The position numbers and the translations under genes were made by a program. Below the pieces are notes generated by a model. It was not told where the DNA came from and searched no databases. It saw nothing but the letters and a program-made list of their open reading frames with translations. From contig JAWBOR010000002.1 in assembly GCA_038826015.1 (NCBI GenBank), positions 1 through 39,691 of the forward strand: a DNA stretch of 39,691 nt. Direction: 5' to 3'. Below are positions 4,041-27,884 of the stretch, piece after piece; positions within the stretch are counted from its first letter, which is position 1; the number at the start of each line of letters is the position of its first letter. Source of the stretch: Candidatus Bathyarchaeia archaeon. Lineage in GTDB: Archaea; Thermoproteota; Bathyarchaeia; Bathyarchaeales; DTEX01.

Positions 4041-5075
4041 TCATTGCTTAAGGATTTTCGTCTTCGCCATCTGTGCTGCGAATTTGACAGCCTCGATCAT
4101 GCTTTGTGGATCAGCAGTTCCTTTCCAAGCCTTTCCGAACGCCGTTCCATGGTCGACTGAACTGCGTATTATAGGGAGCCCAATCGTTACGTTTATGCCA
4201 CTTATTGAAGTCCATTCGCCTTTATTCTCATCCCATTTCAAACCCAGCAACTTTATGGGTATGTGTCCTTGATCGTGATACATTGCGATAACGGCGTCAA
4301 AAGCATCCCCTCTTGCCCTAACGAAAACTGTATCAGGAGGTAACGGTCCCACAGCGTTAATTCCTTCTTTTTTCGCTTCCTCAACCGCTGGTGCAATCTC
4401 CTTGATTTCTTCAAAGCCGAAAAGTCCACCTTCTCCTCCGTGAGGGTTTAATCCAGCTACAGCGATCCTAGGTTTCTTTATACCCATGTCATATAAAGCC
4501 TTATTCGTGAGCCTTATTACTTTAAGAACCCGTTCTTTTTTTATCATTTTGCAAGCTTCTCTTAAAGATAAATGTGTTGTGACATGGACAACCCTGAAGG
4601 AATCCACCATAAGCATCATAGCATAATCCTTCGTACGGGTTAGATGCGCCAAAAGTTCAGTGTGCCCTGCATAATTGTATCCGGCCTTGTTCATCGCTTC
4701 TTTATTGATAGGCGCGGTTGCAATGGCATGAATCTCATTTCTCAATGCCAAATCAACAGCTTTCTCAATGTATTGAAAAGCTGCTTTACCAGCCATTGAG
4801 TCGATTTTGCCAGGTTTAAGTGCTTCCAGGTCTACGTTATCTAGGTCAACAACATCTATCGTGCCAAACTCGAATTTTGCCCCTTCTATTTTAAGTATAG
4901 GATTGCCCTTCAGAGTCACGTTAACAATTTTCGCGGCCAGTTCAATAACCTTCGAGTCACCTATAACAACAGGACGACAAATTTCATAGATTTCTTTCAA
5001 TGATAGTGTTTTCACAATTATTTCAGGACCGATGCCTGCAGCGTCGCCCATCGTTATTCCAACAATTGGCTTCAT
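4041..5075 (-). CDS. pdxA: 4-hydroxythreonine-4-phosphate dehydrogenase family (PdxA/PdxA2)
   Basis: Motifs ITMGDAAGIGPEI, TAPINKE, GHTE, VTTH, GLNPH.GE.GLFG.EE, PPDTVF, MYHDQGHIP.K and N.T.GLP.IR.SVDHGTAF. Metal-binding His residues are intact. The ATGA start overlaps the kinase stop. Confidence 0.93.
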   Translation of the reverse strand: MKPIVGITMGDAAGIGPEIIVKTLSLKEIYEICRPVVIGDSKVIELAAKIVNVTLKGNPILKIEGAKFEFGTIDVVDLDNVDLEALKPGKIDSMAGKAAFQYIEKAVDLALRNEIHAIATAPINKEAMNKAGYNYAGHTELLAHLTRTKDYAMMLMVDSFRVVHVTTHLSLREACKMIKKERVLKVIRLTNKALYDMGIKKPRIAVAGLNPHGGEGGLFGFEEIKEIAPAVEEAKKEGINAVGPLPPDTVFVRARGDAFDAVIAMYHDQGHIPIKLLGLKWDENKGEWTSISGINVTIGLPIIRSSVDHGTAFGKAWKGTADPQSMIEAVKFAAQMAKTKILKQ

Positions 5076-6364
5076 TTAATCTCACCGTCCTTCAAATATT
5101 TCATAATCTTCACGAGCGCATATTTATCACCGAACCCGCCGGCTTTGGTAACGACCCGTAATCCTTCATGGTTGCCCCCTAATATTCTACCTAATGGGAC
5201 ACCTGGTAAAATCTCTTTTTCAATTCTGAACCCTTCGGCACCTAGGACTTTCATTGTTCGTGCAGCTGTATCACCGCCTATGAGAATTAAGCCAATAAAC
5301 CTATAATTTTCAATAATCTTTTGGAAACATTCGCTTAGAATTGAAAGAAGTCTATCTCGAATTTCTAATTTGCTCATCCCGCGTTTTTTACTAATCATCT
5401 GAATTTCTGAAACAAGGCTTTTTGATCTAGCTAATCTTATTATGATGTCTTTGCCCTCTACAATAGCCTTTTCTGCTTCGCGCTTAAGATTATCAATTGC
5501 GATATCCCATTTTTCTTTACTCAAAAAGATCCCAAAGATATCTGGCTCAAGCACATTTACACATAACTCTTTTTCCGCGGTTCTTATCTGATTTAACGTA
5601 ACATTGTTCACGCTCCCAGAAACAACAAGCAAACTTGAACCACGTAGTCTCGAAATCAATAAGCGCGAAACCTCTGTTGCCAAGCCCGCAGAACCACAGG
5701 GCAAAATGTTGCAGGCTGCTGAAACTTTTGCGATTGCAGCTAAATCTTCTTGAGTTTCCGCATCACTTACGATTATTTCTTTTCCGGCTTCAATTAGTTT
5801 CTGAATTTCCTTTGTTAATGATTCAAAGTCGCTTCTAACCTTTGACAAGCTTAATTCACCTATCTTTCTTCGAGTTTGATGTTTGATTAAGGTTGCAACA
5901 TGTGATTCTTTTACGGGATTCAATGGGTCTTGGGCAAAGTCAGTTTTTTCTAAGGGCGTATTGTTAACTAATAGGTATCCGTTTATGACTGTTCTGCCTA
6001 ATGCGGGAAAAGATGGCGCCACAAGAATTGCCTTCGCATCCATTTCATCCAGAACCGCGTCGATTTCTGCTCCAATATTTCCTCTAAGAGTCGAATCAAT
6101 CTTTTTATAAACTAATCTGGCACCAGTTTTATTCAAAGCTTTTATAGCTTCTCTTGTCTTCTTATAGGCTATATCAGGAACAACATTCCTACTCTCAGTA
6201 TCTAATACGAGTACATCAAAATCACTTTTTGATTTGTCTAGACGAACTTCAATCGTAAGAATCAATGTTTCCAATCCTAACTTCTTAAACTGAACACCGA
6301 CGTCGCAAGCCCCAGTGAAATCATCAGCAATCACATAGAACAAAGAGGTTTTCTTCCACATCAC
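5072..6364 (-). CDS. DUF1537 four-carbon acid-sugar kinase (DtnK/DenK/YgbK family)
   Basis: Family motifs IADDFTGACD, DTESR, YKKIDSTLRGN, PSFP..GR, GSAGLA, VSGS, GGDTA and VVTKAGGFG. The start overlaps the aroC stop (GTGATG). Confidence 0.92.
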   Translation of the reverse strand: MMWKKTSLFYVIADDFTGACDVGVQFKKLGLETLILTIEVRLDKSKSDFDVLVLDTESRNVVPDIAYKKTREAIKALNKTGARLVYKKIDSTLRGNIGAEIDAVLDEMDAKAILVAPSFPALGRTVINGYLLVNNTPLEKTDFAQDPLNPVKESHVATLIKHQTRRKIGELSLSKVRSDFESLTKEIQKLIEAGKEIIVSDAETQEDLAAIAKVSAACNILPCGSAGLATEVSRLLISRLRGSSLLVVSGSVNNVTLNQIRTAEKELCVNVLEPDIFGIFLSKEKWDIAIDNLKREAEKAIVEGKDIIIRLARSKSLVSEIQMISKKRGMSKLEIRDRLLSILSECFQKIIENYRFIGLILIGGDTAARTMKVLGAEGFRIEKEILPGVPLGRILGGNHEGLRVVTKAGGFGDKYALVKIMKYLKDGEIK

Positions 6365-7470
6365 AGTTTTCTCTTAACAACTTTTGGCATTTTTCCACAT
6401 CTAATTGCATGGTCAGCCAAGGCAAAAGCCAAGCATGATTCTACTACTGGCACAGCTCTAGGGACGATGCATGGATCATGTCTGCCTGTGAGTTCGATTT
6501 CTGTTTCCTCCATTCGGCTTAGGTCAACAGTTTTCTGCCGCTTAGAGATAGAAGACGTCGGCTTAAATGCGACTCTCACAATAATCGGCATACCAGTTGA
6601 GATTCCGCCCAAAATTCCACCAGCGTTATTTGATAACGTAATGACCTCTCCGTTTTTCAAAAAGTATGAGTCATTATTCTCTGACCCTTTCATGGAAGCC
6701 GTTTTAAAGCCAGCTCCGAATTCAACGCCCTTAACGGCTGGAATGTTAAACAACATTTTGGCAATCTCAGAGTCTAAGGAATCAAATATGGGTTCGCCTA
6801 AACCAGCCGGAACGTTTAAAACGATCCCCTCAACTATTCCACCAAGGCTATCTCTCTCTTTTGCCGTTTTAAGTATCTCTTTTTCCATGAGAGCCGCTGT
6901 CTCTGGAACCGCGCACCGGACGGGGTTCAGATAAACGTTTCTACGAATCTCTTCGTATGGGACCTCTCTAAAAACCTTCACATTTCCAATCTGTACAGTG
7001 TGGGCTAATACTTCAACCCCTATTAAACCTAAAAGCTTCTTTGCGATTGCGCCAGCCATAACGTAGGCTGCCGTAACACGGCCTGAAAACCTGCCTCCAC
7101 CTCGATAATCATTGTATCCACCATATTTAACGTAAGCTGGATAGTCTGCATGACCTGGGCGGGGTTTGTCCTTGATTATTTCATAGGGTTTCGAGTCAAC
7201 ATCATAGTTTTTAATAGTCATGCATATAGGTGCGCCCGTGGTGTAACCATTATACACTCCTGAAAGAATCTCGACACGGTCTAGCTCTTTTCTCTTCGTA
7301 CTCGCAGATGTGAAGCCAGGTCTCCGTTTGTTCAATTCTATTTGGACATCGTCTTCAGTTAATCGCAAGCCTGGTGGACATCCATCTATGATTGCTCCTA
7401 TGCAAGAACCGTGGCTTTCGCCGAAACATGTGAACACTAAGGCTTTTCCTATGGAGTTACCGTTCAACAA
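6361..7470 (-). CDS. aroC: Chorismate synthase
   Basis: Motifs FGESHG, RRPG, PRPGHAD, GGGRFSGRVTA, DSLGG, NNAGGILGGISTG, FKPTSSI and GRHDPC. Confidence 0.97.
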   Translation of the reverse strand: MLNGNSIGKALVFTCFGESHGSCIGAIIDGCPPGLRLTEDDVQIELNKRRPGFTSASTKRKELDRVEILSGVYNGYTTGAPICMTIKNYDVDSKPYEIIKDKPRPGHADYPAYVKYGGYNDYRGGGRFSGRVTAAYVMAGAIAKKLLGLIGVEVLAHTVQIGNVKVFREVPYEEIRRNVYLNPVRCAVPETAALMEKEILKTAKERDSLGGIVEGIVLNVPAGLGEPIFDSLDSEIAKMLFNIPAVKGVEFGAGFKTASMKGSENNDSYFLKNGEVITLSNNAGGILGGISTGMPIIVRVAFKPTSSISKRQKTVDLSRMEETEIELTGRHDPCIVPRAVPVVESCLAFALADHAIRCGKMPKVVKRKL

Positions 7471-8761
7471 TATTCCCCCCTAAGGAGCAAATATCATTAA
7501 CAAAATCTGGATAAGACTTATTTATGCATTCAATCCCGTGAACAACTGCATTCCCCGCAGCAGCCAAAGCAGCGACTGTGCACGCCATAGCAATTCTGTG
7601 ATCTCCATGAGAATCAATGTCTGTCCCATGAAGCTTTCTCCCACCTGTAACCTCCAGGTTATCGTTAAATGCGTTAATTATGGCTCCCATCTTAGTTAAC
7701 TCACTGATCAGGGCGTCTATCCGGTCTGATTCCTTGAAACGTAACCGCTTTACTCCCCGAATCACAGATTTTCCCTTTGCTAAACATGCCAATACCACGC
7801 ATATTGGAACTAAATCTGGGTAATCGTGCATATCAATGTTTATAGGGCTCAAACAGTTCTCCACACCTTGAACTTCAATGTGGTTCCTGCCTGTTTTTAT
7901 TTGAACGCCCATTTTTTCAAGTACGTTAACAATTATGCGGTCGCCTTGAAGCGTATCTTCTTTGAGATTTTCCACTTTCAGATGCGAGTTGGTAATTGCT
8001 GCGGCAGCTAAGAGAAAAGCTGCAGAAGAATAGTCGCCTTCTATAAGGTGATTAAATGGAGTATATCGCTGTTTACAAGACACGTGAAACTGCTTGTAAT
8101 CATGGTTAATCTCGATATTTACTCCATGTTTTCGGAGAATATCAACCGTGATTTCTACATAGGGCTTAGATTCCAAAGAAGTGGACAGAACGATGTCTGT
8201 GTCATTTCGAGCCATAGGGGTAGCCAACAATAAACCTGAAACAAACTGGGAGCTCACATCTCCCTGGATTGAAGCTTTCCCTCCTTTTATTCCTCCGCCA
8301 AAGACAACAACGGGCGGATACCCATCCATTCTAGTGGAGTAGCAACGGACGCCGAGCTGCCTCAAAGCATTCAATAGAGGGCCCATAGGCCTTTTACGAA
8401 GGCTCTCCCCGCCTGTTAACACTGAAACCCCGTCAGCTAAGGCGCAGATCGGTGTAAAAAACCGCATCGTTGAGCCTGAGTTTCGACAGTTGATAACATC
8501 TTCAGGCGTAAGAGGCTTAGATACACCATGAACCTTGAATATGTTGTTTTCAGTTTTTTCGATATTTGCGCCTATCATACGACAAGCATCAACCGTAGCC
8601 AAAGTATCATCAGAAATAAGAGCCTCTCTTATCACGGAAAGCCCCTCTGAAAGTGAAGATGCGATGAAAGCTCGATGAGTTTGAGCCTTTGAAGGAGGAG
8701 CCTTAACAGTTCCAGTCAGATTGCTTTTTTCTTTCACAATAAGATCAGTCAAATTTATCAC
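7457..8761 (-). CDS. aroA: EPSP synthase
   Basis: Motifs PPSKAQTHRA, NSGSTMRF, SLRKRPM, SSQFVSGLL, ESKPYV, GDYSSA, LRFKESDRI, DHRIAM and KSYP.F. Confidence 0.97.
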   Translation of the reverse strand: MINLTDLIVKEKSNLTGTVKAPPSKAQTHRAFIASSLSEGLSVIREALISDDTLATVDACRMIGANIEKTENNIFKVHGVSKPLTPEDVINCRNSGSTMRFFTPICALADGVSVLTGGESLRKRPMGPLLNALRQLGVRCYSTRMDGYPPVVVFGGGIKGGKASIQGDVSSQFVSGLLLATPMARNDTDIVLSTSLESKPYVEITVDILRKHGVNIEINHDYKQFHVSCKQRYTPFNHLIEGDYSSAAFLLAAAAITNSHLKVENLKEDTLQGDRIIVNVLEKMGVQIKTGRNHIEVQGVENCLSPINIDMHDYPDLVPICVVLACLAKGKSVIRGVKRLRFKESDRIDALISELTKMGAIINAFNDNLEVTGGRKLHGTDIDSHGDHRIAMACTVAALAAAGNAVVHGIECINKSYPDFVNDICSLGGNIVER

Positions 8762-9627
8762 GACAGAACATGTGCCTTTTCGCTGTTAATCTTTGCTTCG
8801 ATCACTTCACCACTATACTTCTTCCAAGCGTCTTTGACACTTTCAACTTTGTCTTGAGGAACAATAGCAGCAACGGATGGACCTTTGCCTGATAAACCTG
8901 CAGCGATCGCACCAGCAGCCAAAGCATCTACGGCTATTTTGTCGTCATAACCAAGAACTGCTGAGTAAACAAAACCATTAAGAGTCATTGCTGGCCAATA
9001 TTCGCCTAGACACGCCAATTTATGAAGCAACTTTATTTCGTTAGCTATTAGTTTCATCCCTTCAATGTTGGACTCCGCCGTATAAGCCTTTATTGGAGGC
9101 ACATAAATCAGAACTGGATACTTATCCTTCACGAAAAATTGTTTCAAAATTTTTCTTTCGTAGTTATCAGTGATTACGATGTTTCCAAAATAGGAAGCAC
9201 AAGCGTCATCGAAGGCGCCAGTAATCGTGATACCTGCCTCGATAGCCGCATCAACCCCAAGATTCACAGCGGCGAAGTCGTCAACATCCACCCCTAAAGC
9301 ATCAAAAACTGCAAGCGCAACTGCGTTAGCCGCGGCACTACTGCTTTTTAATCCACGGGCTATCGGAATATTTGATCTGGTTTCTACAAATGCGCCATAT
9401 TCATCTTCGAGATGGAAATATCTCAGAACGCGGCTGACTACTTTTTCAATTAAACTCGTATTCTCTTCTGGATCTGATAAAATCCGACCTTCAATCCGTC
9501 TTGGCTCATTGGTCAATTTGACTGAAGCTTCAGTTTTCAAATCTATGCCTAAGGCTGCGCCTAAGCCGCAAGAAATAGCGTTAATAACCGTTATAGCGCC
9601 ATATGCGATGGCTTTCCCATGATACAT
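8758..9627 (-). CDS. aroK: Archaeal (GHMP-family) shikimate kinase
   Basis: Motifs GAITVINAI..GLGAA, IPIARGLKSSSA, ITGAFDDA.AS.FG and GLSGKGPS. Located in the aro operon. Confidence 0.95.
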   Translation of the reverse strand: MYHGKAIAYGAITVINAISCGLGAALGIDLKTEASVKLTNEPRRIEGRILSDPEENTSLIEKVVSRVLRYFHLEDEYGAFVETRSNIPIARGLKSSSAAANAVALAVFDALGVDVDDFAAVNLGVDAAIEAGITITGAFDDACASYFGNIVITDNYERKILKQFFVKDKYPVLIYVPPIKAYTAESNIEGMKLIANEIKLLHKLACLGEYWPAMTLNGFVYSAVLGYDDKIAVDALAAGAIAAGLSGKGPSVAAIVPQDKVESVKDAWKKYSGEVIEAKINSEKAHVLS

Positions 9628-9631
9628 TCGT

Positions 9632-10504
9632 TCATTTCTCCTTTTTCGCTTTCAATTTTGCCATGGCTGCTTTCATCATAACTTCGACTGGCGCTTTTTT
9701 TCCAGTCCATATTTCGAAAGAAGATGCGCCTTGATGAATAAGCATGTCTAAACCGTTGATGGTTTTCGCTCCCACTTTTTTCGCGTCTTTAAGCAATCTG
9801 GTTTCAAAAGGATCATAAACTAAATCGAAAACGACCATACTAGGACGCAAAAGGATCGGATTAATCGGCGTCTCGTTTTCTCTAGGATGCATTCCTATAG
9901 AAGTAGCATTGATAACTATGTCAGCGTCTTCCAACTCCGTTTTTAGATTGGTTTCTTTTAAGCTTCTCGCTTTCACCTTTACGCTTTTTCCTAAAAGGCT
10001 TGATAGATCCTTAACAAGGTTTTCGGCCTTTTCTACTGTTCTATTTAGGACCACAAGTTCTTTAGATTCCTTCGCTATATTAAAAGAGACTGCTCTAGAT
10101 GCGCCTCCTGCGCCTAATATTACAATTTTCTTGTTTGATGGGCTCACTTTGTTGTATTTTAGAGCATTTAATGCGCCGATTCCATCTGTGGAATAACCGA
10201 TTAGTGTTCCCTCTTTATTCAGCACCGTATTAACTGAGCCAATGTTTTTTGCTGTTTCATCTATCTGATCAAGATATTGAATCACGTTCATCTTGTGAGG
10301 CATGGTTACATTTAATCCATGCATATTCAAACTTCGCATACCTGAAACTGCCTTTTCAAGGTTCTCTTTCTTAACATTGAATGCAACGTAAACATAGTTC
10401 AAATTAAGATACTGAAAAGCTGCATTCTGAATAGAAGGACTCAGAGAATGCGCCACAGGATCCCCAATCAACGCGCAAACCTTTGTTGTTGCTGAAATGT
10501 TCAT
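9632..10504 (-). CDS. aroE: Shikimate dehydrogenase
   Basis: Motifs GDPVAHSLSP, GLNVTMPHK, GSVNTV, TDG, GAGGA.RA, NRT, INATSIGM, D.VY.P and GL.MLI.QG. Confidence 0.96.
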   Translation of the reverse strand: MNISATTKVCALIGDPVAHSLSPSIQNAAFQYLNLNYVYVAFNVKKENLEKAVSGMRSLNMHGLNVTMPHKMNVIQYLDQIDETAKNIGSVNTVLNKEGTLIGYSTDGIGALNALKYNKVSPSNKKIVILGAGGASRAVSFNIAKESKELVVLNRTVEKAENLVKDLSSLLGKSVKVKARSLKETNLKTELEDADIVINATSIGMHPRENETPINPILLRPSMVVFDLVYDPFETRLLKDAKKVGAKTINGLDMLIHQGASSFEIWTGKKAPVEVMMKAAMAKLKAKKEK

Positions 10505-11202
10505 TCAATGACACCCAATTTTCGGTAAATCTTTTTCAGTTCGGTTATGGAAATTTGGTCAGGAGCGGTTTCTAATCCGCTCTTTAACGAAGCGAAAGTG
10601 AAGTAGGAACCGAAAAAAGGCGATAAAATCCTGGATAATACACCATCTCTACCCATTGCAAAACAGACAATTTTAGTTATCTCACTCATCTTTTTCGTGA
10701 AAAGCAAGCATTGAATGCTGTCCTCAACACTGTTGGCAGTTGTTACCAGTTTACAGATTTCAGCTCCCGTTTTACGTTGTTCTTTGACGATTTTCTCCAT
10801 CTGGGATAATGCAGGGGTGCCGTTGAAATCGTGGAAAGACAAGATCGGCTTAGCACCATAATTCCTCACACTGTGAACTATCGCATTCAAATCTCTCGTA
10901 GTTAACTCCAAATCTACATATTGAAACCCTAGTTCGGCAGACTTAATCAATGTTTTAACCCTCAAATCTTCGTTTTGAAGGCACTTTCCTCCCTGCTCGT
11001 ATTGTCTATTGGTAGCGATGAGTGGAAGAGAAGATTGCTCAACCACTCCTTCAAATCTATTCATGCTGCTCAAATCATTTATGCCCATATAGTCAAAACG
11101 GATCTCAATTAAATCTGCCCCCACATTTTCAGCTCTTCGAATCATTGGTATAATGTCAGAAAACGTTTTGATAGGCAAAGGAACGCAAATTCTTGGCCTC
11201 AT
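10501..11202 (-). CDS. aroD: Type I 3-dehydroquinate dehydratase
   Basis: Motifs EIRFD, IATNR..EQGG, YVDLEL, SFHDF..TP, ICKL (Schiff-base Lys), FAMG..G..SR and APDQ. Confidence 0.93.
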   Translation of the reverse strand: MRPRICVPLPIKTFSDIIPMIRRAENVGADLIEIRFDYMGINDLSSMNRFEGVVEQSSLPLIATNRQYEQGGKCLQNEDLRVKTLIKSAELGFQYVDLELTTRDLNAIVHSVRNYGAKPILSFHDFNGTPALSQMEKIVKEQRKTGAEICKLVTTANSVEDSIQCLLFTKKMSEITKIVCFAMGRDGVLSRILSPFFGSYFTFASLKSGLETAPDQISITELKKIYRKLGVIE

Positions 11203-12293
11203 CTTTCAATCACTTTCTCTTCTTTGACAAGTGTGCCGAAATGTCTGCCTCCTTCCTTTAAATGTAAAAGAACTTTATCGCCCGCTGTTAAATCCTTCAT
11301 AGATTTACTTCCATTCTCAGTCACAATTCTGATTGTTTCCGCATTTTGAACTATAGTCTTAAACTTTTTTCCCTCACATTCCGCTTCAATAAGTGTGAGT
11401 GGTCTCCACTCTATCTTAACCCTACAAATATTTGTTGTTCTATTCTTTCCATAGCGATCAACAATGAGAACTTCGTCTCCAGCCTTTAACTCTGAAAGGT
11501 ATCGTGTTTTACCGCTTGGTGCAAGAACATAAAGCGCAATAGAACCTGCATTCACACGGAAGGGACGAGGAGCAACAAACGGTGTCTCATGAACTTCAGC
11601 TTCTATAAGGAAGAGACCTGAGGATTGGCATCCGACAAGTATGCCTTCGCCTTCTCTCATTATGTCACATGTATCTATGCATACCCGTGCACCCGCATTG
11701 ATAGGCTTTATCTCGGTAACTTTAGCTGGGAGAAGCCTGATCGTTTCTGAAGATTCCAATTCAGGCCTCCTTGTCTTAATGGCCTGCATGGTTTTGTAAA
11801 TCTTCATTATCTCATAGACATCTGAAAGATCTGCGACGATTCCATCCACACCAATTTCTAAAGTTTCAAGAGCTATTTTCGCTTCTTGGACATTGGAAAC
11901 AAAGGCTAGAAGTTTGCTTTTTCCATGAATCGACGCTATAAGATTTTCTAGAGGTATGATCTTCCAATCTGGGCACATAGCTACAACATAATCAGTTCCA
12001 GCTTCGGCCCAAGTTACTATTTTCTTTTCATCACCCTTTGATTTAACAGTTACAATAACAGAAGTTTTTTTCCCTCTTTTCTTAAATTTCGGAATTTCTC
12101 TAATCTCTTTCAGAAGAACGATATCTCCATCCTCAGTGGAGCATACAATGTTCTTACTACCAGATTTTCTAGCTAATAGCGCGTCCTCTACCTCAGTTAA
12201 ATGCGCTGTACAGATTTCCGCCGTCTTCTGGATCAGTGCCTCTTTTTCCAGTTTTGGTAAGGCTGGATGAACTTTTATCCAGAGTTCTCTCAA
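11199..12293 (-). CDS. aroB': 3-dehydroquinate synthase II (archaeal AroB', MJ1249-type)
   Basis: Motifs DWKIIPLENLIA, LE.GVDG, RVCIDTC, GEGILVG, RPFRVNAG, TRYLSEL, RVKIE.RPL, QNAETIR and GRHFG. TTG start. Confidence 0.95.
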   Translation of the reverse strand: MRELWIKVHPALPKLEKEALIQKTAEICTAHLTEVEDALLARKSGSKNIVCSTEDGDIVLLKEIREIPKFKKRGKKTSVIVTVKSKGDEKKIVTWAEAGTDYVVAMCPDWKIIPLENLIASIHGKSKLLAFVSNVQEAKIALETLEIGVDGIVADLSDVYEIMKIYKTMQAIKTRRPELESSETIRLLPAKVTEIKPINAGARVCIDTCDIMREGEGILVGCQSSGLFLIEAEVHETPFVAPRPFRVNAGSIALYVLAPSGKTRYLSELKAGDEVLIVDRYGKNRTTNICRVKIEWRPLTLIEAECEGKKFKTIVQNAETIRIVTENGSKSMKDLTAGDKVLLHLKEGGRHFGTLVKEEKVIER

Positions 12294-21551: not shown

Positions 21552-22841
21552 TTATATAATCCAAGGCGGATACTTTTGTCCTTTTAAAAGCGTTTCAAAG
21601 TTTTCTTTTTCTCTGATTTGGGCGTAATCACCGTTTTTGACAAGGATTTCGGCGCATCTCGGCCTAGAATTGTACTGGGAGCTCATTGCGAAGCCGTAGG
21701 CTCCAGCGTTTAATATGGCCAAGAGGTCGCCTTCACGGATTTGGGGCAACGGTCTATCCCGAGCTAAGAGGTCGCCTGATTCGCATATGGGGCCCGCAAT
21801 GTCGTAGACTTCTTCTTCGGGTTCGTTAAGCCTGTTCGCCACAACGATAGGATGATATGAGCCGTACATAGATGGCCTAATCAAAGTGTTGAAACCCGCG
21901 TCAACACCGACAAACTTCTTGAAAGGCGTAATCTTCACCGTGTTTACAGCTGTTAAGAGAATCCCAGCATCGCAAACTATGAATCTGCCTGGCTCAACAC
22001 AGAAGAAAGGCTCCCCCAAATCATATTCTTTTATTCTTTTTTTATAAAGCCCAAGAACATTTTCCGCAAACGAATCCAAATTCAGAGCCTCATCTTCTGG
22101 TTTGTAGGGCACTCCTAAACCTCCGCCGAAGTCAATGAATTCAAAGTCTAAACCTAACTTATCATGGATTAAACGAGCTATTTCCAGAAGCTTTTCCGCA
22201 GCTAGAACAAAAGGTTCAACTGTGAGTATACCTGAACCTATATGCATATGAATACCGAATCTTTTCACGTCAGCATCCTGAGCTAACCTATAAGCCTCTA
22301 ACACATCTTTCTCCCATATCCCAAACTTTGAACTCCTCCCAGCTGTAATCACATGTTCATGGTGACCAGCTCCAACCTCTGGGTTTACCCTAATTGAAAG
22401 AAGGTTCGGCACATGAAATCGCAGTAGCCTTTTCAGCTGTGAGAGCGAATCCACATTGATAGCCACATTGAAGTCCATGATATATTTCATCTCCTCATTG
22501 CGCACACTTGTGCCCGTAAAAAGAATTTTCTCGGATGGAAAACCGACTTTAAGCGCTAAAAAGACTTCACCTGGGCTCACAGCATCAAGATAAGAACCTT
22601 CATTGAGTAGAATTTTCAAGATTGAAAGGTTTGTATTAGCTTTTGCCGAGTAATAGATTCTGATTTTCCCATAATGCTTAGATAAAGCTCTGTGCAAACG
22701 GCGATAGTTTTCTCTAATCCTTCGCTCGCTCATAACGTAAATGGGCGTGTCAAACTCCTTTGCGAGTTTCAGAGATGAAACACCATCTATGTAAAGAACC
22801 CCATCTCTGTTTTCTAAAATTTCCTCTATTAGTTTTGGCAT
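21552..22841 (-). CDS. lysA: Diaminopimelate decarboxylase
   Basis: Motifs YSAKAN (PLP Lys), DAVSPGE, RVNP, SKFG, HMHIGS, DFGGG, EPGR, IRP.MY, GPICESGD and GAYG..MSS.YNSRP. Confidence 0.96.
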   Translation of the reverse strand: MPKLIEEILENRDGVLYIDGVSSLKLAKEFDTPIYVMSERRIRENYRRLHRALSKHYGKIRIYYSAKANTNLSILKILLNEGSYLDAVSPGEVFLALKVGFPSEKILFTGTSVRNEEMKYIMDFNVAINVDSLSQLKRLLRFHVPNLLSIRVNPEVGAGHHEHVITAGRSSKFGIWEKDVLEAYRLAQDADVKRFGIHMHIGSGILTVEPFVLAAEKLLEIARLIHDKLGLDFEFIDFGGGLGVPYKPEDEALNLDSFAENVLGLYKKRIKEYDLGEPFFCVEPGRFIVCDAGILLTAVNTVKITPFKKFVGVDAGFNTLIRPSMYGSYHPIVVANRLNEPEEEVYDIAGPICESGDLLARDRPLPQIREGDLLAILNAGAYGFAMSSQYNSRPRCAEILVKNGDYAQIREKENFETLLKGQKYPPWII

Positions 22842-22885
22842 AATGATACCTACTTTTTTATGTGAGGCAAAAGTAACTTATTAGA

Positions 22886-23944
22886 TTAGAGGATCCCCTT
22901 AGTAACCATTAGCTCAGCGCTTAGAATGCCAGCTCCAGCTGCGCCTCTCACTGTGTTATGTCCTAGACAAAGGTATTTAACAGTCATGATCGGGTCAGAT
23001 CGAATTCGCCCAACAACTACACTCATTCCGTTTCCAGCATCTCTATCAAACCGCGGCTGGGGTCTGTCAGGCTCTTCCCTGACAATTATAGGTTTTTCAG
23101 GCGCTGTGGGCAGCTTAAATTTCTGCGGTTCGCCTCTGAAATTTCTAAATGCTTCTTTGATTTCTTCCACGCTTGGTTTGGATTCTAATTCAACGAAAAC
23201 TGCTTCAAGATGCCCATCTTTAACGTTTACACGGTTGCAACTAGCACTTATAGAAATGTCTGCAGGCTTAACATGTGTACCATCGAATGTACCTAGTATC
23301 TTTCTTGTTTCACTTTCCATCTTCTCCTCTTCCTTCGAGATGTAGGGAATAACATTGTCGATAATATCGAGTGAGGATACTCCGGGATAGCCAGCACCAC
23401 TTAAAGCCTGCATAGTTGTAACAATCACCCTTTTAAGCCCAAAAGCCATAAGAGGTTTTAACGTCATAGCCATTTGAATAGTTGAGCAATTAGGATCAGT
23501 TGAAATAAACCCTTTCCAGCCTCGCTTCTTTCTCTGGATCGGGATAAGTTCTAATTGTTCTGAGTTCACTTCGGGTATCAGAAGCGGGACATCCTCTTCC
23601 ATTCTATGCGCTGCAGCTTTGCTTAGCACAGGGTATTCTGCTGCAAACTCTGTTTCCACTGGACCCGCTAGGTCGCCTGGCAAAGTTGAAAAGACAAAGT
23701 CCACGTCTTCGGTTTCTTTCACGCTTTTTAAATCTGTATTTACGACGTTCATGTCGCCGATTTCTGAAGGCATTTCGGTTTCCATTCGCCACACACAGGC
23801 ATTCTTGTATTTCTTGCCAGCTGAACGTTCCGATGCGGCGAGCACAGAGGTTTCGAACCATGGATGACCTTCGAGTAGTTGGATGAACCTTTGTCCAACA
23901 GCTCCTGTCGCACCCAATATAGCTACTTTACGTTTCAAGTACAT
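22886..23944 (-). CDS. asd: Aspartate-semialdehyde dehydrogenase (archaeal type)
   Basis: Motifs [44 protein letters not shown] and HNTVRGAAG. Confidence 0.96.
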
Positions 23945-25106
23945 CCCTCACAACTTTAACAGCATCTTCAAGTTTGGATTCGTCAATGAATATGTTTATT
24001 GTAGCCTTACTAGTTGTGATTTCTATTATATTTATGTTTCTGGAAGCCAGAACGCCTGAAATCTTCGCTATCCAGCCAGGTGAATCAATAAAGACCGGAT
24101 GAGTCACCTCAATATGGCCGACATTGTTTCGGAAACTTAACGCCTTGGATATGTTGAGCCCATGCAGTCTGTTTACAAGCTCGTTTGGATTCTCAGCAGA
24201 TGTGAAGACGGTGAGTGATCCTTTACCTGTGCTAATTCCAAATATTGGATTGTTGCCAAGTGAGGCGAAAAGTTTGTTCATATTCTCAGAATTAATGTTA
24301 GCAACTAGGCTGATTGCAAGAATCCCCTTTTTCTCGTTAATCTCAAATGAGTTAGGATCGAAGTCTCCAACGATTTCTGTCCCATGCGAATTAAGATTGC
24401 TTGAGAAGCTAACAATTCTCAGCTTCTGCTCAGGCAGTTTGTATTTTAAAGCTTCAGCCTTAACTATTTTTGCTCCCCCATGCGCCAGAGCAAACATCTC
24501 GTGAATATTCAACTTCTCCAGAGGCTTAGCATCCGGCACAACTTTGGGATCAGCAGACATCACACCTTCTGTCTCCTTTACGAGAATTACTTCGTTGGCT
24601 TTAAGACAGTTGGCGAGAATCATAGCAGTTGTGTCGCTTCCTCCTCGACCTAGAGTAGTTATGTTCCCTTCGCTGTCACGTCCAAGGAAACCGCATACAA
24701 CCACTATTTTTTTGCCTAAAAGAGGTTCAATGTATCTGTTAACTCGTTCACATGTCTTCTCCATGTCGGGTTTGGCATCTTTAAAATTAGAATCTGTTAT
24801 AATAGGCCATTCGTTATGGTTCGGCTCTAAATATATAGCCTCTGCACCTATTGATCTTAAAGCTGAACAGAAAATACGGGCGCTGGTTCGTTCACCCATG
24901 GAAACGATTTCCGCATAATCTTGGTCGCTTAAGCCGCCTATCTGAGACATAATTTTGACCAGGTTATTTGTAGTGTCGGCTATAGCTGAAACAACCACAA
25001 CAACTTCTTCATAGCCAGAGCCCAGAACCATCTCGGCTGCCTTTTTTATTTTTTCTCCAGAAGAGAGATCGGCTCCACCGAACTTAATGACAACCCTTTT
25101 ATTCAT
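23928..25106 (-). CDS. lysC: Aspartate kinase with C-terminal ACT domain
   Basis: Motifs [36 protein letters not shown] and GVMSADP. ACT-like DSPG.IAKI...LA..NINI. Confidence 0.95.
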
Positions 25107-25131
25107 TGAATTTCCAAACCTCTAAGTTACA

Positions 25132-25926
25132 TTAGCTCAGCACATTATCCATGGTGTAAATTCCAGGCTTTGTTTGCTTAAGAATCCATTCAGCGGCTAA
25201 CAAAGCGCCTTGAGCGAAGACGTTCCTTGAGAAGGCTACATGTTCTATACGGATCATCTCATGGGGACCCGCAACTATTAGATCATGCACACCAGGAACG
25301 CCGCCGGCCCTAATCGATAGAATTTCGAGTTCGCTTGGTTTTCGAGCATTTAAACCCTCCCTTCCATAGACAACCGTGGAATAACCCCTGTTAGCCGATA
25401 TAAGTTCGCCCAGTTTTTTAGCTGTTCCACTCGGAGCATCTTTTTTTCCTGTGTGGTGGATTTCGGTTATGCTGAAGTCGTAGTCGCGTGGAAAAAGGTT
25501 TAATGTCTTCGTCAATTTGAACAATATGTTTACTCCGATGGCGTAATTAGGCGAAAAGACTGCAGGCACCTTACTTGCGACTGCCTCCTTTAATTTCTTC
25601 ATCTGCTCATCTGTTAAACCGGTTGTTCCCATGATTATTCTCTTTCCTAAACTGGCTACGACTGGAAGATTTGCAACCTCTGCTTCAGGCGTTGTGAAAC
25701 TAAGGTAGACGTCAGCTTCTTTGACAGCTGCTTTTAATTGTGACGATTCGACTATTTCTACATTGGAGTCGCATATTCCAGCCTCTTGCAGAGTCTTTCC
25801 AACGTTTGGGTCCTCCTTAGCTGCAACGGCTCCAACCACATTGAAACCTCGGGCTAATGCTTCTTTAATTAGGACGCTGCCCATCCTGCCAGTTGCGCCA
25901 GCCACGCAAATCTTAATCATAAGCAA
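25132..25926 (-). CDS. dapB: 4-hydroxy-tetrahydrodipicolinate reductase
   Basis: Motifs GATGRMG, FT.PE, GTTG, SPN.AIGVN, EIHH..KKDAPSGTA, R.G..PG.H and H.AFSR..FA.GA. Confidence 0.96.
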   Translation of the reverse strand: MLMIKICVAGATGRMGSVLIKEALARGFNVVGAVAAKEDPNVGKTLQEAGICDSNVEIVESSQLKAAVKEADVYLSFTTPEAEVANLPVVASLGKRIIMGTTGLTDEQMKKLKEAVASKVPAVFSPNYAIGVNILFKLTKTLNLFPRDYDFSITEIHHTGKKDAPSGTAKKLGELISANRGYSTVVYGREGLNARKPSELEILSIRAGGVPGVHDLIVAGPHEMIRIEHVAFSRNVFAQGALLAAEWILKQTKPGIYTMDNVLS

Positions 25927-26950
25927 GTCCTTTCCAGTTCTTCTCGTTGTAGAGTCTTTTATTGAGATTTACATCAAAGAATTTTTCTATTGGCTCTAGC
26001 ACCTCAGGTGTTTTTTCGTATACTGTTCTAGCTACGTTGAGGACCACTCCTAACCCTTTTCTGGTCATTTTACCCAAGGGCCGTCTACAAGGGCCTGCCG
26101 GCATACCTAAGATATTCATTAAGACCTTATATGGAAGCGGGTTCCTTGCTTTACATGACGTAAGCCCGAACGGTGTCTCTTCTTCAGTTTTCACCGTTAC
26201 CATCGAGAACAACGGCTTAAGCGCCTCACCGAGTTTTTTAGCTTCATCCATTTTTCCTTTAAGAATTGCTTGAACAAACCTTTGAGTCGCACCTGGCGCG
26301 ACATTGGAAGTTACCGAAATCACTCCAGAAGCTGCAATTTCTGGAATCGTCATCATTTCATAGGTTTTGTCGTCGTCGCCGGAAAGTATATCAAAGTCTT
26401 CCCCGCAAAGTTTTCTTGTTAATTTCATGTTTTCAATGTTTCCAGTTGCTTCTTTAACTGACCTCACATTCTTAAATTGGGAGTGAAGAATTGCAAGGTC
26501 TTGAGGCAAAAGCTGCGTTCCAGTTCTGCCTGGAATTACATATGGAATCAGTTGGACATCTGGGAATTCCAAGGCTATGGGTTCAATGTATTCTTTCCTT
26601 ATTTCCAGTGAACTTGGACCATTATAATAAGGGTCAACAAGCAGAACACATTTCACGCCAAGGTCTGATACTTCCCGCGTTGCTTCAATGGATTCTTCTG
26701 TAGAGTTACTTCCAGTTCCGCCAATAGTGAGGCATTTTCCATCAGCATATTCGTGAACTTTCTCGATGACTTTTATGTGTTCTTCCCAGTTTAAAGTAGG
26801 GCTTTCACCGGTTGTTCCAACCGCTAGAATTCCGCTAATTCCCTCTTTCACTTGAAATTCTACGAGACTTTTTAAACCTTCATAATCAACAGCGTATTTT
26901 TTAGTCATAGGGGTTATTATCGCCGTATAACATCCTTCAAATTTGCGCAT
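25913..26950 (-). CDS. dapA: 4-hydroxy-tetrahydrodipicolinate synthase (extended variant)
   Basis: Motifs TAIITP, GTTGESPTL, GTGSNST, PYYN, Y.IPGRTG, VKEATG (Schiff-base Lys) and SGDD. Start placed at ATG 26950 after RBS AAGGTGA. The ORF track uses GTG 26962. Confidence 0.94.
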   Translation of the reverse strand: MRKFEGCYTAIITPMTKKYAVDYEGLKSLVEFQVKEGISGILAVGTTGESPTLNWEEHIKVIEKVHEYADGKCLTIGGTGSNSTEESIEATREVSDLGVKCVLLVDPYYNGPSSLEIRKEYIEPIALEFPDVQLIPYVIPGRTGTQLLPQDLAILHSQFKNVRSVKEATGNIENMKLTRKLCGEDFDILSGDDDKTYEMMTIPEIAASGVISVTSNVAPGATQRFVQAILKGKMDEAKKLGEALKPLFSMVTVKTEEETPFGLTSCKARNPLPYKVLMNILGMPAGPCRRPLGKMTRKGLGVVLNVARTVYEKTPEVLEPIEKFFDVNLNKRLYNEKNWKGLAYD

Positions 26951-26993
26951 CTGAGATTTCACCTTATCATTGAAAAGGTGTTTTATATGAGTG

Positions 26994-27070: not shown

Positions 27071-27138
27071 TTTAACAAAAATTTTGAGCCGACATTTATT
27101 TGTTAAACGATTAAAGATGTTGAGTTGGTCATCTTTAA
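27071..27138. repeat. Two adjacent 9-bp inverted repeats downstream of pdxJ (possible terminator or RNA hairpins)
   Basis: TTTAACAAA (27071-79) pairs with TTTGTTAAA (27099-107). TTAAAGATG (27111-19) pairs with CATCTTTAA (27130-38). Confidence 0.45.
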
Positions 27139-27161
27139 ACGTATTGATTTTAGATGTATGC

Positions 27162-27884
27162 TCAGCGAAGTACAGACAGAATTTCTTTGACCGCTTGTTC
27201 AAGTCCAATAAAGACCGCGCGTGCTATTATGCTATGACCTATACTTACTTCACTAAGATTAGGAAGCTTAACGATGCGATGGAGATTCCGGAATGTTAAG
27301 CTATGTCCAGCACGTAGTTCCAATTCCAATTCGCCTGCGAGTTCTGCTGCTTTAAACAAACGCATAAACTCGAATTCTTCATTGGCACTAGAAAAAGTCG
27401 CGGCGTATGCACCAGTGTATAATTCCACTATATTGGCACCTACTTCCTTAGCTGCCTTTATTTGCTCCGCGTCTGGTTCGACGAATAAGCTAACTCTCAT
27501 ATTTCCACTGCGAAGTTGTTCGATGGCAGCACGTATACGCTCTTTTCGTCCAATAACATCTAGTCCTCCCTCGGTTGTTGTTTCTTCTGGCCTCTCAGGA
27601 ACTAGTGTGCACATATCTGGCTTCACATCCAACGCGATTTGCAACATCTCTTCAGTGATCGCCATCTCAAGATTCAAGTTTCTTTTTACTATTTGTCGAA
27701 ACAAGCGTAAATCTTGCTCTTGAATATGCCGGCGATCTAGCCTCAGATGAACAGTTATTCCATGGGCTCCTGCTTGTAAACATGTAATTGCGGCAGCTAT
27801 GAGATCTGGTTCCCAGAAAGGAGGCCCACGTGCTTGACGAAGAGTTGCAATATGATCGATATTAACGCTCAATTTAATCGTCAT
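27162..27884 (-). CDS. pdxJ: Pyridoxine 5'-phosphate synthase
   Basis: Collinear with E. coli PdxJ over its full length: VNIDHIATLR.AR, GITVHLR.DRRHI, NLEMA.TEEM, LVPE...E.TTEGGLDV, VSLF, AGH.L and IGH.II.RA. Confidence 0.96.
   Translation of the reverse strand: MTIKLSVNIDHIATLRQARGPPFWEPDLIAAAITCLQAGAHGITVHLRLDRRHIQEQDLRLFRQIVKRNLNLEMAITEEMLQIALDVKPDMCTLVPERPEETTTEGGLDVIGRKERIRAAIEQLRSGNMRVSLFVEPDAEQIKAAKEVGANIVELYTGAYAATFSSANEEFEFMRLFKAAELAGELELELRAGHSLTFRNLHRIVKLPNLSEVSIGHSIIARAVFIGLEQAVKEILSVLR

What the first reader, a model, noticed from the sequence alone, without database searches (positions are those of the whole stretch)
4041..27884. Bacterial-type DXP-dependent vitamin B6 module (DUF1537 kinase + PdxA + PdxJ) inside an archaeal amino-acid biosynthesis cluster
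Seen: an intact pdxJ (27162-27884), pdxA (4041-5075) and a DUF1537 kinase (5072-6364) lie within about 23 kb in a clearly archaeal context. Known: archaea normally make PLP with PdxS/PdxT (Pdx1/Pdx2). PdxA/PdxJ is the DXP-dependent route of Proteobacteria and other bacteria, and most archaea have no DXP synthase because they use the mevalonate pathway. DUF1537 kinases paired with PdxA2 can phosphorylate 4-hydroxy-L-threonine, and PdxA oxidises 4-phosphohydroxythreonine to 3-amino-2-oxopropyl phosphate, the PdxJ substrate. Inference: the three genes form a short route (4HT -> 4PHT -> aminoacetone-P + DXP -> PNP) that bypasses Epd/PdxB/SerC. No dxs, pdxH, pdxB or pdxS/T is in the window, so the DXP source and the PNP-to-PLP step may be non-canonical.
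Basis: partly seen in the sequence, partly recalled or inferred. Interest (0 to 1): 0.88.

Follow-up and report, generated by a model that had tools for sequence, protein, structure and literature searches.

The report
Archaeal pdxJ without a DXP synthase
A hot-spring archaeon carries an intact bacterial-type vitamin B6 gene (pdxJ) and lacks the usual archaeal B6 genes, but the three genes proposed as one module have separate histories, and no known source was found for one of pdxJ's two substrates.

Summary
pdxJ, a PdxA2-type pdxA and a DUF1537 kinase are intact at the stated coordinates on an authentic Bathyarchaeial contig. The 91%-complete genome shows no PdxS/PdxT, Dxs, Dxr, PdxH or PdxK-type kinase.

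The "three-gene module" reading is only partly supported.
- **Kinase:** it is the resident last gene of this family's archaeal shikimate operon. It is conserved next to aroC in 12 relatives that have no pdxJ.
- **pdxA:** it belongs to a separate "type A" clade that also occurs in 5 pdxJ-less relatives.
- **pdxJ:** it is a single-gene insertion into the conserved dapA|lrp gap, 22 kb away.

pdxJ is very rare in the class: 4 of 401 sampled genomes, plus one more. The five copies form one clade, keep the catalytic motifs, and never co-occur with PdxS. None of the five genomes has Dxs. The two that lack pdxA carry a threonine-dehydrogenase-like gene beside pdxJ.

The most likely reading is that pdxJ and PdxA2 make pyridoxine phosphate, with deoxyxylulose phosphate (DXP) coming from an unknown Dxs-independent source. 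The kinase's role is uncertain. I rate this a new variant of a known pathway, of moderate to high interest, resting on MAG data only.

The parts
27162..27884 (-). pdxJ, pyridoxine 5'-phosphate synthase. A single-gene insertion between dapA and the divergent lrp.
   Evidence: PF03740 312.5 bits and NF003625 315 > 190. Full-length match to E. coli PdxJ (1m5w/1ho1), 248 bits. The dapA|lrp backbone is conserved in 12 of 12 fetched relatives, none of which has pdxJ there.
4041..5075 (-). pdxA of the PdxA2 subfamily ('type A'). Overlaps the kinase stop and the NAPRTase start by 4 nt each.
   Evidence: PF04166 372.6 bits. PDB matches: 2hi1 'PdxA 2' 309 bits and 6e85 D-threonate-4-P dehydrogenase 303 bits, against E. 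coli PdxA 1ps6 at 178 bits. Sits in the type-A clade, SH-aLRT 100.
5072..6364 (-). DUF1537 (SBD_N + NBD_C) kinase. The resident terminal gene of the family's shikimate operon.
   Evidence: aroC-DUF1537 adjacency in 12 same-family relatives. Clade of 11 aroC-adjacent rows, support 95/99.
6361..12293 (-). Archaeal shikimate operon: DHQS-II, aroD, aroE, GHMP aroK, aroA, aroC. Runs into the kinase, pdxA and NAPRTase with 4-nt overlaps.
12466..13266 (+). ADH synthase (DhnA-type aldolase), divergent from the aro operon.
   Evidence: NF005556 402.6 > 241 and TIGR01949 370 > 299.
2515..4044 (-). Nicotinate phosphoribosyltransferase, appended after pdxA. No similar gene was found in the fetched stretches around relatives' aro-linked kinases.
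   Evidence: NF009131 432 > 330. No window-NAPRT hit in the relatives' DUF1537 or pdxA loci.
21552..26962 (-). dapA-dapB-ask-asd-lysA operon, directly downstream of pdxJ after a 199-nt AT-rich gap.
   Evidence: DapA orthologs at 68-80% identity in 33 of 36 same-family genomes.
28100..28492 (+). Lrp/AsnC regulator, divergent from pdxJ. Part of the conserved lrp-tyrA-CM-HAD block.
35406..36509 (+). Threonine-dehydrogenase-like Zn-dehydrogenase. A possible alternative maker of the amino-ketone substrate. Not the closest homolog of the pdxJ-adjacent ones in G054 and G144.
   Evidence: NF003808 269 bits, below the 380 cut-off. 30% identical to G054's copy and 35% to G144's.

Best explanation
pdxJ here is a working PNP synthase gene. 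It belongs to a small, old Bathyarchaeial pdxJ clade and was inserted on its own into the dapA|lrp gap of this lineage. The genome shows no PdxS/PdxT.

The PdxA2-type dehydrogenase, appended together with NAPRTase to the end of the shikimate operon, most likely oxidises 4-phosphohydroxythreonine to 3-amino-2-oxopropyl phosphate (APP). PdxJ then condenses APP with DXP to give PNP.

DXP must come from a Dxs-independent source that has not been identified. Candidates present in the genome are XylB-class kinases acting on free deoxyxylulose, DhnA-type aldolases related to ADH synthase, and fused PDH-E1-like enzymes. The PNP-to-PLP oxidation is also unassigned.

The DUF1537 kinase is the resident shikimate-operon kinase, not part of a transferred module. 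It may supply 4-phosphohydroxythreonine, as may ThrB, but its conserved role lies elsewhere.

Shown: gene identities, absences in this MAG, distribution, synteny and the trees. Inferred: every enzymatic step.
For: Integrity of pdxJ:
- It aligns full-length with E. coli PdxJ at 248 bits. The recalled active-site positions are kept, apart from one Gly to Ser change.
- Those positions are invariant in the 4 archaeal copies aligned.

Origin and distribution of pdxJ:
- The five archaeal PdxJs form one group (SH-aLRT 91; 0 of 500 label shuffles as low). They are 61-76% identical to one another and at most 58% identical to any bacterial sequence compared.
- The best of 1.84 billion representatives is 54% identical.
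- None of the 5 pdxJ holders has PdxS.

Authenticity of the contig:
- Both flanks are syntenic with 12 of 12 fetched relatives.
- GC and GC3 of pdxJ and pdxA lie within 1.3 sd of the contig's genes.
- Logan contigs from 3 runs tile the junctions with no joints.

Supply of APP:
- 3 of 5 holders have type-A pdxA.
- The 2 holders without pdxA both have a Tdh-like gene in the pdxJ cluster.
- Passages of PMC9997740 state that PdxA2 catalyses the PdxA reaction. Passages of PMC7954711 state that DUF1537 members and ThrB phosphorylate 4HT.

Possible DXP sources:
- G000 has XylB-class kinases at 549 and 382 bits (cut-off 380) and a second ADH-synthase-like aldolase.
- G054 has a XylB and a DhnA-type aldolase next to pdxJ.
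- Passages of PMC3424233 show that mutant PDH E1 and RibB can supply DXP in dxs-defective E. coli. Its reference list cites XylB phosphorylating deoxyxylulose.
Against: - No Dxs over the cut-off in any of the 5 pdxJ holders. G054 and G144 lack even transketolase- or PDH-E1-like matches of note. No known DXP route is therefore present.
- No PdxH or PNPOx-like protein.
- Type-A pdxA occurs in 5 relatives without pdxJ. Its neighbours there are sugar dehydrogenases and aldolases, which points to acid-sugar catabolism.
- The window's pdxA scores below the equivalog cut-offs for both PdxA (416 < 470) and D-threonate-4-P dehydrogenase (360 < 583).
- XylB does not discriminate: 4 of 4 holders against 27 of 57 non-holders.
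- The genome is 91% complete and highly fragmented. The lack of any ThiD/PdxK-like hit, when all 60 relatives have one, warns that genes may simply be unassembled.
- There is no expression or biochemical evidence.
Confidence: 0.45

Rival explanations
1. The kinase and the PdxA2-type enzyme serve another pathway: four-carbon acid-sugar catabolism (threonate or erythronate to DHAP), or a precursor or side-product step tied to the archaeal shikimate pathway. On this reading pdxJ is functionally unrelated to them and gets its amino-ketone elsewhere, for example from a Tdh-like enzyme or ThrB.
For: - The kinase is the terminal gene of the shikimate operon in 12 pdxJ-less relatives and sits inside that clade.
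- Its best family match is D-threonate kinase, as it is for the pdxA-linked and aro-linked kinases of relatives.
- pdxA is closest to the solved D-threonate-4-P dehydrogenase / PdxA2 structures.
- Type-A pdxA in pdxJ-less genomes sits by GFO/IDH/MocA oxidoreductases (G032), or by DHDPS-family and class-II aldolases (G033).
Against: - Only in G000 is a type-A pdxA fused onto the aro-type kinase with a 4-nt overlap, and G000 also gained pdxJ.
- 3 of 5 pdxJ holders have type-A pdxA. In the 61-genome set that is 3 of 4 holders against 5 of 57 non-holders.
- G039's pair is preceded by an aminotransferase and an alanine dehydrogenase, a context suggesting an amino-acid substrate.
- No acid-sugar dehydrogenase or transporter lies beside the pair in the window.
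Confidence: 0.3
2. pdxJ is idle or does something else. With no DXP synthase the cell cannot feed it, and the organism is a B6 auxotroph like most of its class.
For: - No Dxs in any of the 5 holders and no Dxr in G000. No PdxH.
- 363 of 401 sampled class members have neither PdxS nor PdxJ over the cut-off, so life without a known de novo route is the norm in this class.
Against: - The five archaeal copies are intact, with no stops.
- In the 4 aligned, the catalytic positions are invariant at 62-74% identity to the window's PdxJ, which argues for purifying selection on the enzyme.
- Neighbours recur that fit substrate supply: a Tdh-like gene in 2 of 5 loci, plus XylB and an aldolase in one.
- No salvage kinase was found in G000.
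Confidence: 0.2
3. Artefact: pdxJ is bacterial contamination or a chimeric join in the contig.
For: - The genome is a fragmented MAG with 2.97% contamination.
- No single Logan contig spans dapA-pdxJ-lrp.
Against: - Both flanks match the family backbone in 12 of 12 relatives, and DapA is 68-80% identical to its family orthologs.
- Base composition is unremarkable.
- The closest PdxJs are other Bathyarchaeial copies (75% to G055), and none of the bacterial sequences compared exceeds 54% identity to the window's PdxJ.
- Overlapping Logan contigs from 3 runs in 2 studies tile both junctions without any joint.
Confidence: 0.03

Closest known systems
DXP-dependent PLP pathway of E. coli (Epd, PdxB, SerC, PdxA, PdxJ, PdxH, Dxs)
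   Same: PdxJ is a clear family member with the catalytic motifs kept. A PdxA-family dehydrogenase is present.
   Different: - The host is an archaeon. [quoted passage not shown]
- No Dxs, Dxr or PdxH was found.
- pdxA is of the PdxA2 type.
- Epd, PdxB and SerC were not tested.
DUF1537 kinase + PdxA2 pairs of bacteria (D-threonate / D-erythronate catabolism; 4-hydroxythreonine recycling)
   Same: Adjacent, translationally coupled kinase and PdxA2-type dehydrogenase. The best family and structure matches are to D-threonate kinase and D-threonate-4-P dehydrogenase.
   Different: - Both proteins score below the equivalog cut-offs.
- The kinase belongs to a clade embedded in archaeal shikimate operons.
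- The pdxA partner comes from a different clade whose usual kinase partner is a different DUF1537 lineage.
Archaeal ADH-synthase / DHQS-II (DKFP) shikimate operon
   Same: ADH synthase, DHQS-II, aroD, aroE, GHMP aroK, aroA and aroC are all present in the usual order.
   Different: - This family adds a DUF1537 kinase as the last gene.
- G000 further adds pdxA and NAPRTase, and lacks the operon-linked aspartate kinase of its relatives.
PdxS/PdxT (DXP-independent PLP synthase), the usual archaeal route
   Same: It would supply the same end product, vitamin B6 (PLP).
   Different: - Not found in G000 or in any of the 5 pdxJ holders.
- Found in only 34 of 401 sampled class members.

Membership tests
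PdxJ (PNP synthase) | Score above the curated family cut-offs over the full length | tested here: met
   PF03740 312.5 > 24.5; NF003625 315 > 190; TIGR00559 277.5 > 192.75.
PdxJ (PNP synthase) | Catalytic and phosphate-binding residues of E. coli PdxJ (list recalled from memory, not from a call) | tested here: met
   In the alignment to 1m5w, Asn9, Asp11, His12, Arg20, His45, Arg47, His52, Glu72, Thr102/103, Glu153, His193, Gly215 and His216 are conserved. Gly194 is Ser. The same positions are invariant in the 4 archaeal copies aligned.
PdxJ (PNP synthase) | Condenses DXP with 3-amino-2-oxopropyl phosphate | not testable with these tools
   Needs an enzyme assay or complementation.
Complete DXP-dependent PLP pathway | DXP synthase present | tested here: not met
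   TIGR00204: none over the cut-off in G000. The hits are a split transketolase and two fused PDH-E1 alpha-beta ORFs. None over the cut-off in the other four pdxJ holders either.
Complete DXP-dependent PLP pathway | PNP oxidase PdxH present | tested here: not met
   TIGR00558 none. PF01243 none.
Complete DXP-dependent PLP pathway | Epd / PdxB or PdxR / SerC upstream branch | not tested
   Only a 62%-identical homolog of a relative's FAD-linked oxidase was seen, on C46. Its function is unknown.
PdxA2 / D-threonate-4-phosphate dehydrogenase | Closer to PdxA2 than to canonical PdxA | tested here: met
   2hi1 309 bits and 6e85 303 bits, against E. coli PdxA 1ps6 at 178 bits.
PdxA2 / D-threonate-4-phosphate dehydrogenase | Reaches the NCBIfam equivalog cut-off | tested here: not met
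   NF002891 359.8 < 583. The PdxA equivalog NF002992 is also missed, 415.9 < 470. The broader TIGR00557 passes, 365 > 290.
DUF1537 acid-sugar kinase | SBD_N plus NBD_C two-domain architecture | tested here: met
   235.8 and 106.4 bits.
DUF1537 acid-sugar kinase | Assignable substrate class (DtnK, OtnK or OiaK equivalog) | tested here: not met
   DtnK 335 < 450; OtnK 179 < 350; OiaK 85 < 700.
PdxS/PdxT PLP synthase | Genes present in the genome | tested here: not met
   PF01680 none. PF01174 hits only HisH, at window 18753-19298. The genome is 90.9% complete.

The most novel reading that the evidence does not exclude
A handful of Bathyarchaeia run a PdxJ-based vitamin B6 pathway in which neither substrate comes from the textbook enzymes.
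- DXP comes from a Dxs-independent route. One candidate is a DhnA/ADH-synthase-type aldolase that builds 1-deoxyxylulose, followed by a XylB-class kinase, as the G054 pdxJ cluster suggests.
- The amino-ketone phosphate comes from interchangeable dehydrogenases: PdxA2-type in some genomes, Tdh-like (in G144 with an aminotransferase beside it) in others.

This would be the first archaeal DXP-dependent B6 route and a new natural source of DXP.
Probability: 0.4. Interest if true: 0.8.

Novelty: new variant of a known kind. Interest (0 to 1): 0.64.

Why it matters
The current survey literature holds that archaea make B6 only through PdxS/PdxT, and that DXP comes from Dxs. Here a conserved, intact PdxJ clade sits in archaea that show no PdxS/T and no Dxs. 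If PdxJ is active, these cells must make DXP some other way.

That makes an open question directly testable with a few cloned genes: are there natural Dxs-independent routes to DXP, and what replaces PdxA and PdxH in anaerobes?

The survey also shows that about nine in ten sampled Bathyarchaeia have neither known de novo B6 route. This bears on vitamin dependencies in sediment and hot-spring communities. Separately, a DUF1537 kinase embedded in an archaeal shikimate operon is an unexplained, conserved association that deserves study.

Tried and rejected
- **RuBisCO-like-protein (MTA-shunt type) route to DXP.** RuBisCO_large was found in only 2 of 5 pdxJ holders, so it is not a consistent partner.
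- **XylB as a discriminating partner.** Over the cut-off in 4 of 4 holders but also in 27 of 57 non-holders. It is permissive only.
- **ThDP enzymes as the general DXP source.** G000 has a split transketolase and two fused PDH-E1 ORFs, and G040's 614-aa hit is a plain transketolase at 843 bits. G054 has no dxs-model match and G144 only two hits at about 20 bits, so this cannot be the shared solution.
- **Shared orthologs of the G054/G144 pdxJ neighbours in G000.** The best matches are only 30-42% identical, so there are no clear orthologs. The Tdh-like genes of G054 and G144 are only 37% identical to each other.
- **Compositional sign of recent transfer.** None.
- **Bacterial donor.** Not identifiable. 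The nearest named branch, a Verrucomicrobiota MAG, is weakly placed, and the named sample is biased by the motif scan.
- **Read laying.** No single Logan contig spans dapA-pdxJ-lrp. Only overlapping pieces do, and the best holder may be the source sample. One run filed as metatranscriptomic is flagged 'probably DNA', so no expression claim is made.
- **Tools and papers not available.** The Zhang et al. 2016 DUF1537 paper is not held, so what 4XFM and 4XFR are could not be checked. Thiaville 2016 was seen only as cited in PMC9997740 and PMC7954711. Supplementary tables of PMC9997740, which may list archaeal PdxA or PdxJ hits, could not be seen.
- **Literature searches.** No paper holds both 'pdxJ' and 'Bathyarchae*'. 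Searches gave nothing on archaeal pdxJ or on DUF1537 in archaeal shikimate operons.

Full report
**1. Observation**

- pdxJ (27162-27884, minus strand) scores 312.5 bits on PF03740 and passes several NCBIfam PdxJ equivalogs.
- pdxA (4041-5075, minus) scores 372.6 bits on PF04166 and passes TIGR00557 (365 > 290).
- The 430-aa ORF at 5072-6364 has both DUF1537 domains, SBD_N and NBD_C. Its best named match is D-threonate kinase at 335 bits, below the 450 cut-off.

The surroundings are archaeal and biosynthetic:
- a shikimate operon with DHQS-II, a GHMP shikimate kinase and a divergent ADH synthase;
- a his operon;
- a dapA-dapB-ask-asd-lysA operon;
- tyrA and chorismate mutase;
- fibrillarin.

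The window is all of contig C2 of a 2.08-Mb MAG in 246 contigs, 90.9% complete with 2.97% contamination.

**2. The rest of the genome**

Six-frame family searches of the whole MAG gave the following.
- PdxS: none.
- PdxT model: only HisH.
- PdxH: none. PNPOx-like: none.
- PdxK/ThiD-type kinase: none.
- Dxr: none.
- pdxJ and pdxA: one copy each.

The dxs model found nothing over its cut-off. Its hits are a split transketolase on C137 and two fused PDH-E1 alpha-beta ORFs on C25 and C117. The caveat is that 9% of marker genes are missing. G000 is also the only one of 61 genomes with no ThiD-like hit at all, which hints that some genes are simply unassembled.

**3. Is pdxJ authentic?**

- DapA has orthologs at 68-80% identity in 33 of 36 same-family genomes.
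- In all 12 relatives whose dapA region I fetched, the order lysA-asd-ask-dapB-dapA | lrp-tyrA-CM is conserved, with the HAD gene following in the 9 stretches where it was detected. Only G000 has pdxJ in the dapA|lrp gap.
- That gap varies from about 35 to 5,400 bp in the others, and 5 of them hold other ORFs there.
- GC and GC3 of pdxJ and pdxA lie within 1.3 sd of the contig's genes.
- Logan contigs from three hot-spring runs in two studies tile dapA, the gap, pdxJ, the next gap and lrp with overlaps and no joints. No single contig spans everything, and the best holder may be the source sample.

A chimera or contaminant is very unlikely.

**4. Does pdxJ look functional, and where does it come from?**

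It aligns end to end with E. coli PdxJ at 248 bits. The active-site residues as I recall them from the structural literature are kept, except that Gly194 is Ser. The same positions are invariant in the four archaeal copies aligned.

pdxJ is rare in relatives and in the class:

| Sample | pdxJ over cut-off |
|---|---|
| Other genomes of the same family | 0 of 36 |
| Same order, other families | 3 of 24 (G040, G054, G055) |
| Even sample of the class (includes G000) | 4 of 401 (G000, G040, G054, G144) |

The nearest named record is a 'Candidatus Bathyarchaeia' MAG contig at 63%. Bacteria follow at 49-53%. Among 1.84 billion representatives the best is 54% identical.

I built a quick tree of 88 rows: the 5 archaeal copies, 12 named bacteria, and 71 of the top 80 representatives, keeping those of 228-265 aa. 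The five archaeal PdxJs form one group (SH-aLRT 91). G000 is sister to G055 (99). No donor can be identified.

This is an old, small archaeal clade, not a fresh bacterial import. [quoted passage not shown] No held paper mentions pdxJ together with Bathyarchae*.

**5. The three genes are not one module**

*Kinase.* In 12 same-family genomes (G002, G003, G006, G007, G011, G015, G018, G019, G024, G025, G027, G032) a DUF1537 kinase 44-61% identical to the window's follows aroC as the last gene of the shikimate operon. None of the 12 has pdxA beside it and none has pdxJ. These are 12 of the 14 family members that have any DUF1537. In a careful ML tree the window's kinase sits in a clade of 11 aroC-adjacent rows (support 95/99). 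The pdxA-adjacent kinases of G033, G039, G040 and G050 lie outside it. Rows with fewer than 250 aligned residues were left out, among them G002 and G006.

*pdxA.* It splits into two clades, each with SH-aLRT 100 in a quick tree.
- Type A has 8 rows: G000, G030, G032, G033, G039, G040, G050 and G055.
- Type B has 14 rows.
The rest score in the type-B range but were not fetched.
- Type B is the family-wide form: PdxA of any type is in 33 of 36 family genomes. Where I looked, it sits after a bona fide homoserine kinase ThrB (326 > 194 bits) and before a PIN_9 protein.
- G000 has only type A. By solved structures type A is PdxA2-like: 2hi1 309 bits and 6e85 303 bits, against E. coli PdxA at 178 bits.

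G000 therefore joins an aro-type kinase to a type-A pdxA whose usual partner is a different DUF1537 lineage. It adds NAPRTase behind it, all with 4-nt overlaps. pdxJ arrived separately, 22 kb away.

**6. Co-occurrence across the pdxJ holders**

| Genome | pdxA | DUF1537 | Genes near pdxJ |
|---|---|---|---|
| G000 | type A | yes (aro-type) | dapA operon downstream; lrp divergent |
| G040 | type A (and type B) | yes | convergent radical-SAM gene |
| G055 | type A | yes | PALP-PadR fusion upstream; unknown 234-aa ORF downstream |
| G054 | none | yes | Tdh-like Zn-dehydrogenase, DhnA/DeoC-type aldolase (42% to ADH synthase), XylB (420 > 380 bits) |
| G144 | none | not tested | class-III aminotransferase and Tdh-like gene in an overlapping operon; radical-SAM gene |

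- The Tdh-like neighbours score 233 bits (G054) and 229 bits (G144) on TIGR00692, below its cut-off.
- A radical-SAM gene 54% identical between G040 and G144 lies next to pdxJ in G040 and at the end of the pdxJ cluster in G144.
- Conversely, 5 genomes have type-A pdxA but no pdxJ: G030, G032, G033, G039 and G050. Three of them are 93-99% complete.
- In those genomes the neighbours are sugar dehydrogenases (G032), DHDPS-family and class-II aldolases (G033), an FAD-linked oxidase (G050), or an aminotransferase plus alanine dehydrogenase (G039).
- None of the five pdxJ holders has PdxS or Dxs over the cut-off.

**7. Most likely mechanism**

Intact, conserved PdxJ enzymes in genomes without PdxS argue that PdxJ makes PNP in these cells.

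For the amino-ketone phosphate, G000 most plausibly uses its PdxA2-type enzyme. PdxA2 is reported to catalyse the PdxA reaction (PMC9997740 passages). DUF1537 members and ThrB are reported to phosphorylate 4-hydroxythreonine (PMC7954711 passages). G000 has both the kinase and a ThrB on C15. The Tdh-like neighbours in the pdxA-less holders fit the same need by a different enzyme.

DXP is the unsolved part.
- G000 has XylB-class kinases (549 and 382 bits, cut-off 380), a second ADH-synthase-like aldolase on C69, and the two PDH-E1-like ORFs.
- Mutant PDH E1 and RibB can supply DXP in dxs-defective E. coli. The reference list of that paper cites XylB phosphorylating deoxyxylulose and PDH forming 1-deoxyketoses (PMC3424233 passages).
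- My own chemical inference, untested: an ADH-synthase-type transfer of the hydroxyacetone unit onto glycolaldehyde or its phosphate would give 1-deoxy-D-threo-pentulose or its 5-phosphate, which is DXP. Transamination of hydroxypyruvaldehyde phosphate, the ADH-synthase by-product, would give PdxJ's other substrate.
- None of these candidates is shared by all five holders. XylB is too common to discriminate: 31 of 61 genomes overall, 4 of 4 holders against 27 of 57 others.

The PNP-to-PLP step has no candidate.

**8. Verdict**

- The 'module' is three independently placed genes.
- The kinase's conserved job is tied to the shikimate operon or to acid sugars rather than to pdxJ.
- The interesting core is a conserved archaeal PdxJ clade with no known DXP source, alongside variable suppliers of the amino-ketone.

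I put 0.45 on the PdxJ plus PdxA2 B6 reading, 0.30 on the kinase-PdxA2 pair serving another pathway, 0.20 on pdxJ being idle, and 0.03 on an artefact. All evidence is from MAGs and sequence comparison. Nothing here shows activity or expression.

Noticed in passing
window 5072-6364; relatives' loci L054-L057, L059, L061, L063-L068: A DUF1537 kinase is the conserved last gene of the archaeal (ADH synthase / DHQS-II) shikimate operon in 12 same-family genomes. No paper found links DUF1537 to archaeal shikimate operons. What it phosphorylates there is unknown; a DKFP-related precursor is one untested idea.
   Followed up: partly
L037 7546-9926 (G008); L048 6898-9310 (G024): The family-wide 'type B' pdxA sits in a thrB (homoserine kinase) - pdxA - PIN_9 arrangement in genomes with no pdxJ and mostly no pdxS. 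What a PdxA does there is unexplained. G000 lacks this pdxA, and its thrB (C15) and PIN gene (C11) are unlinked.
   Followed up: partly
class-level sample of 401 genomes: PdxS is over the cut-off in 34 of 401 genomes and PdxJ in 4 of 401, with no overlap. About 363 of 401 sampled Bathyarchaeia therefore show neither known de novo B6 route. Among genomes at least 90% complete the counts are PdxS 25 of 220 and PdxJ 4 of 220.
   Followed up: no
window 26963-28099 and relatives L159-L170: The dapA|lrp intergenic gap is a variable insertion spot. It is 35-400 bp in 7 relatives. In 5 others it is 1.3-5.4 kb and holds ORFs of about 390-425 aa, plus an 894-aa ORF in G019. G003's ORF has no NCBIfam match.
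   Followed up: partly
G000 whole genome: There is no PF08543 (ThiD/PdxK) match at all, although all 60 relatives have one and most carry a strong ThiD-type ORF of about 460 aa. This is either a loss or an assembly gap.
   Followed up: no
G000 C25:5759-7735 and C117:3769-5775: Two fused pyruvate/acetoin-dehydrogenase E1 alpha-beta ORFs of 658 and 668 aa. Their partner subunits and role were not examined.
   Followed up: no
window 11199-13266 versus relatives L054-L057: Relatives carry a second, operon-linked aspartate kinase (NF005159 382 > 379 bits) upstream of DHQS-II. G000's aro operon lacks it, and ADH synthase is directly divergent from DHQS-II.
   Followed up: no
L054 6029-7381 and equivalents; G000 C126:2120-3466: An SHMT-like gene (PF00464, only 183 bits) lies convergent, directly after the aro-linked DUF1537, in 9 of 12 relatives' loci. 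In G002 it is 3.5 kb away. It was not found in G006 or G025, whose loci end at a contig end. G000's 80%-identical ortholog is on another contig.
   Followed up: partly
window 16932-18137: A 401-aa HAD-family ORF sits inside the his operon between hisC and hisB, with weak HAD-IA matches only. It may be the missing histidinol-phosphate phosphatase.
   Followed up: no
window 4041-5075: The window's PdxA has an 11-residue insertion relative to both PdxA2-type structures it was aligned with. Whether all type-A copies share it was not checked.
   Followed up: no
G000 C69:3889-6205: A second ADH-synthase-like DhnA aldolase (232 bits, just under the 241 cut-off) lies next to a sulfoquinovose-isomerase-like ORF (178 bits, far below its 700 cut-off).
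   Followed up: no
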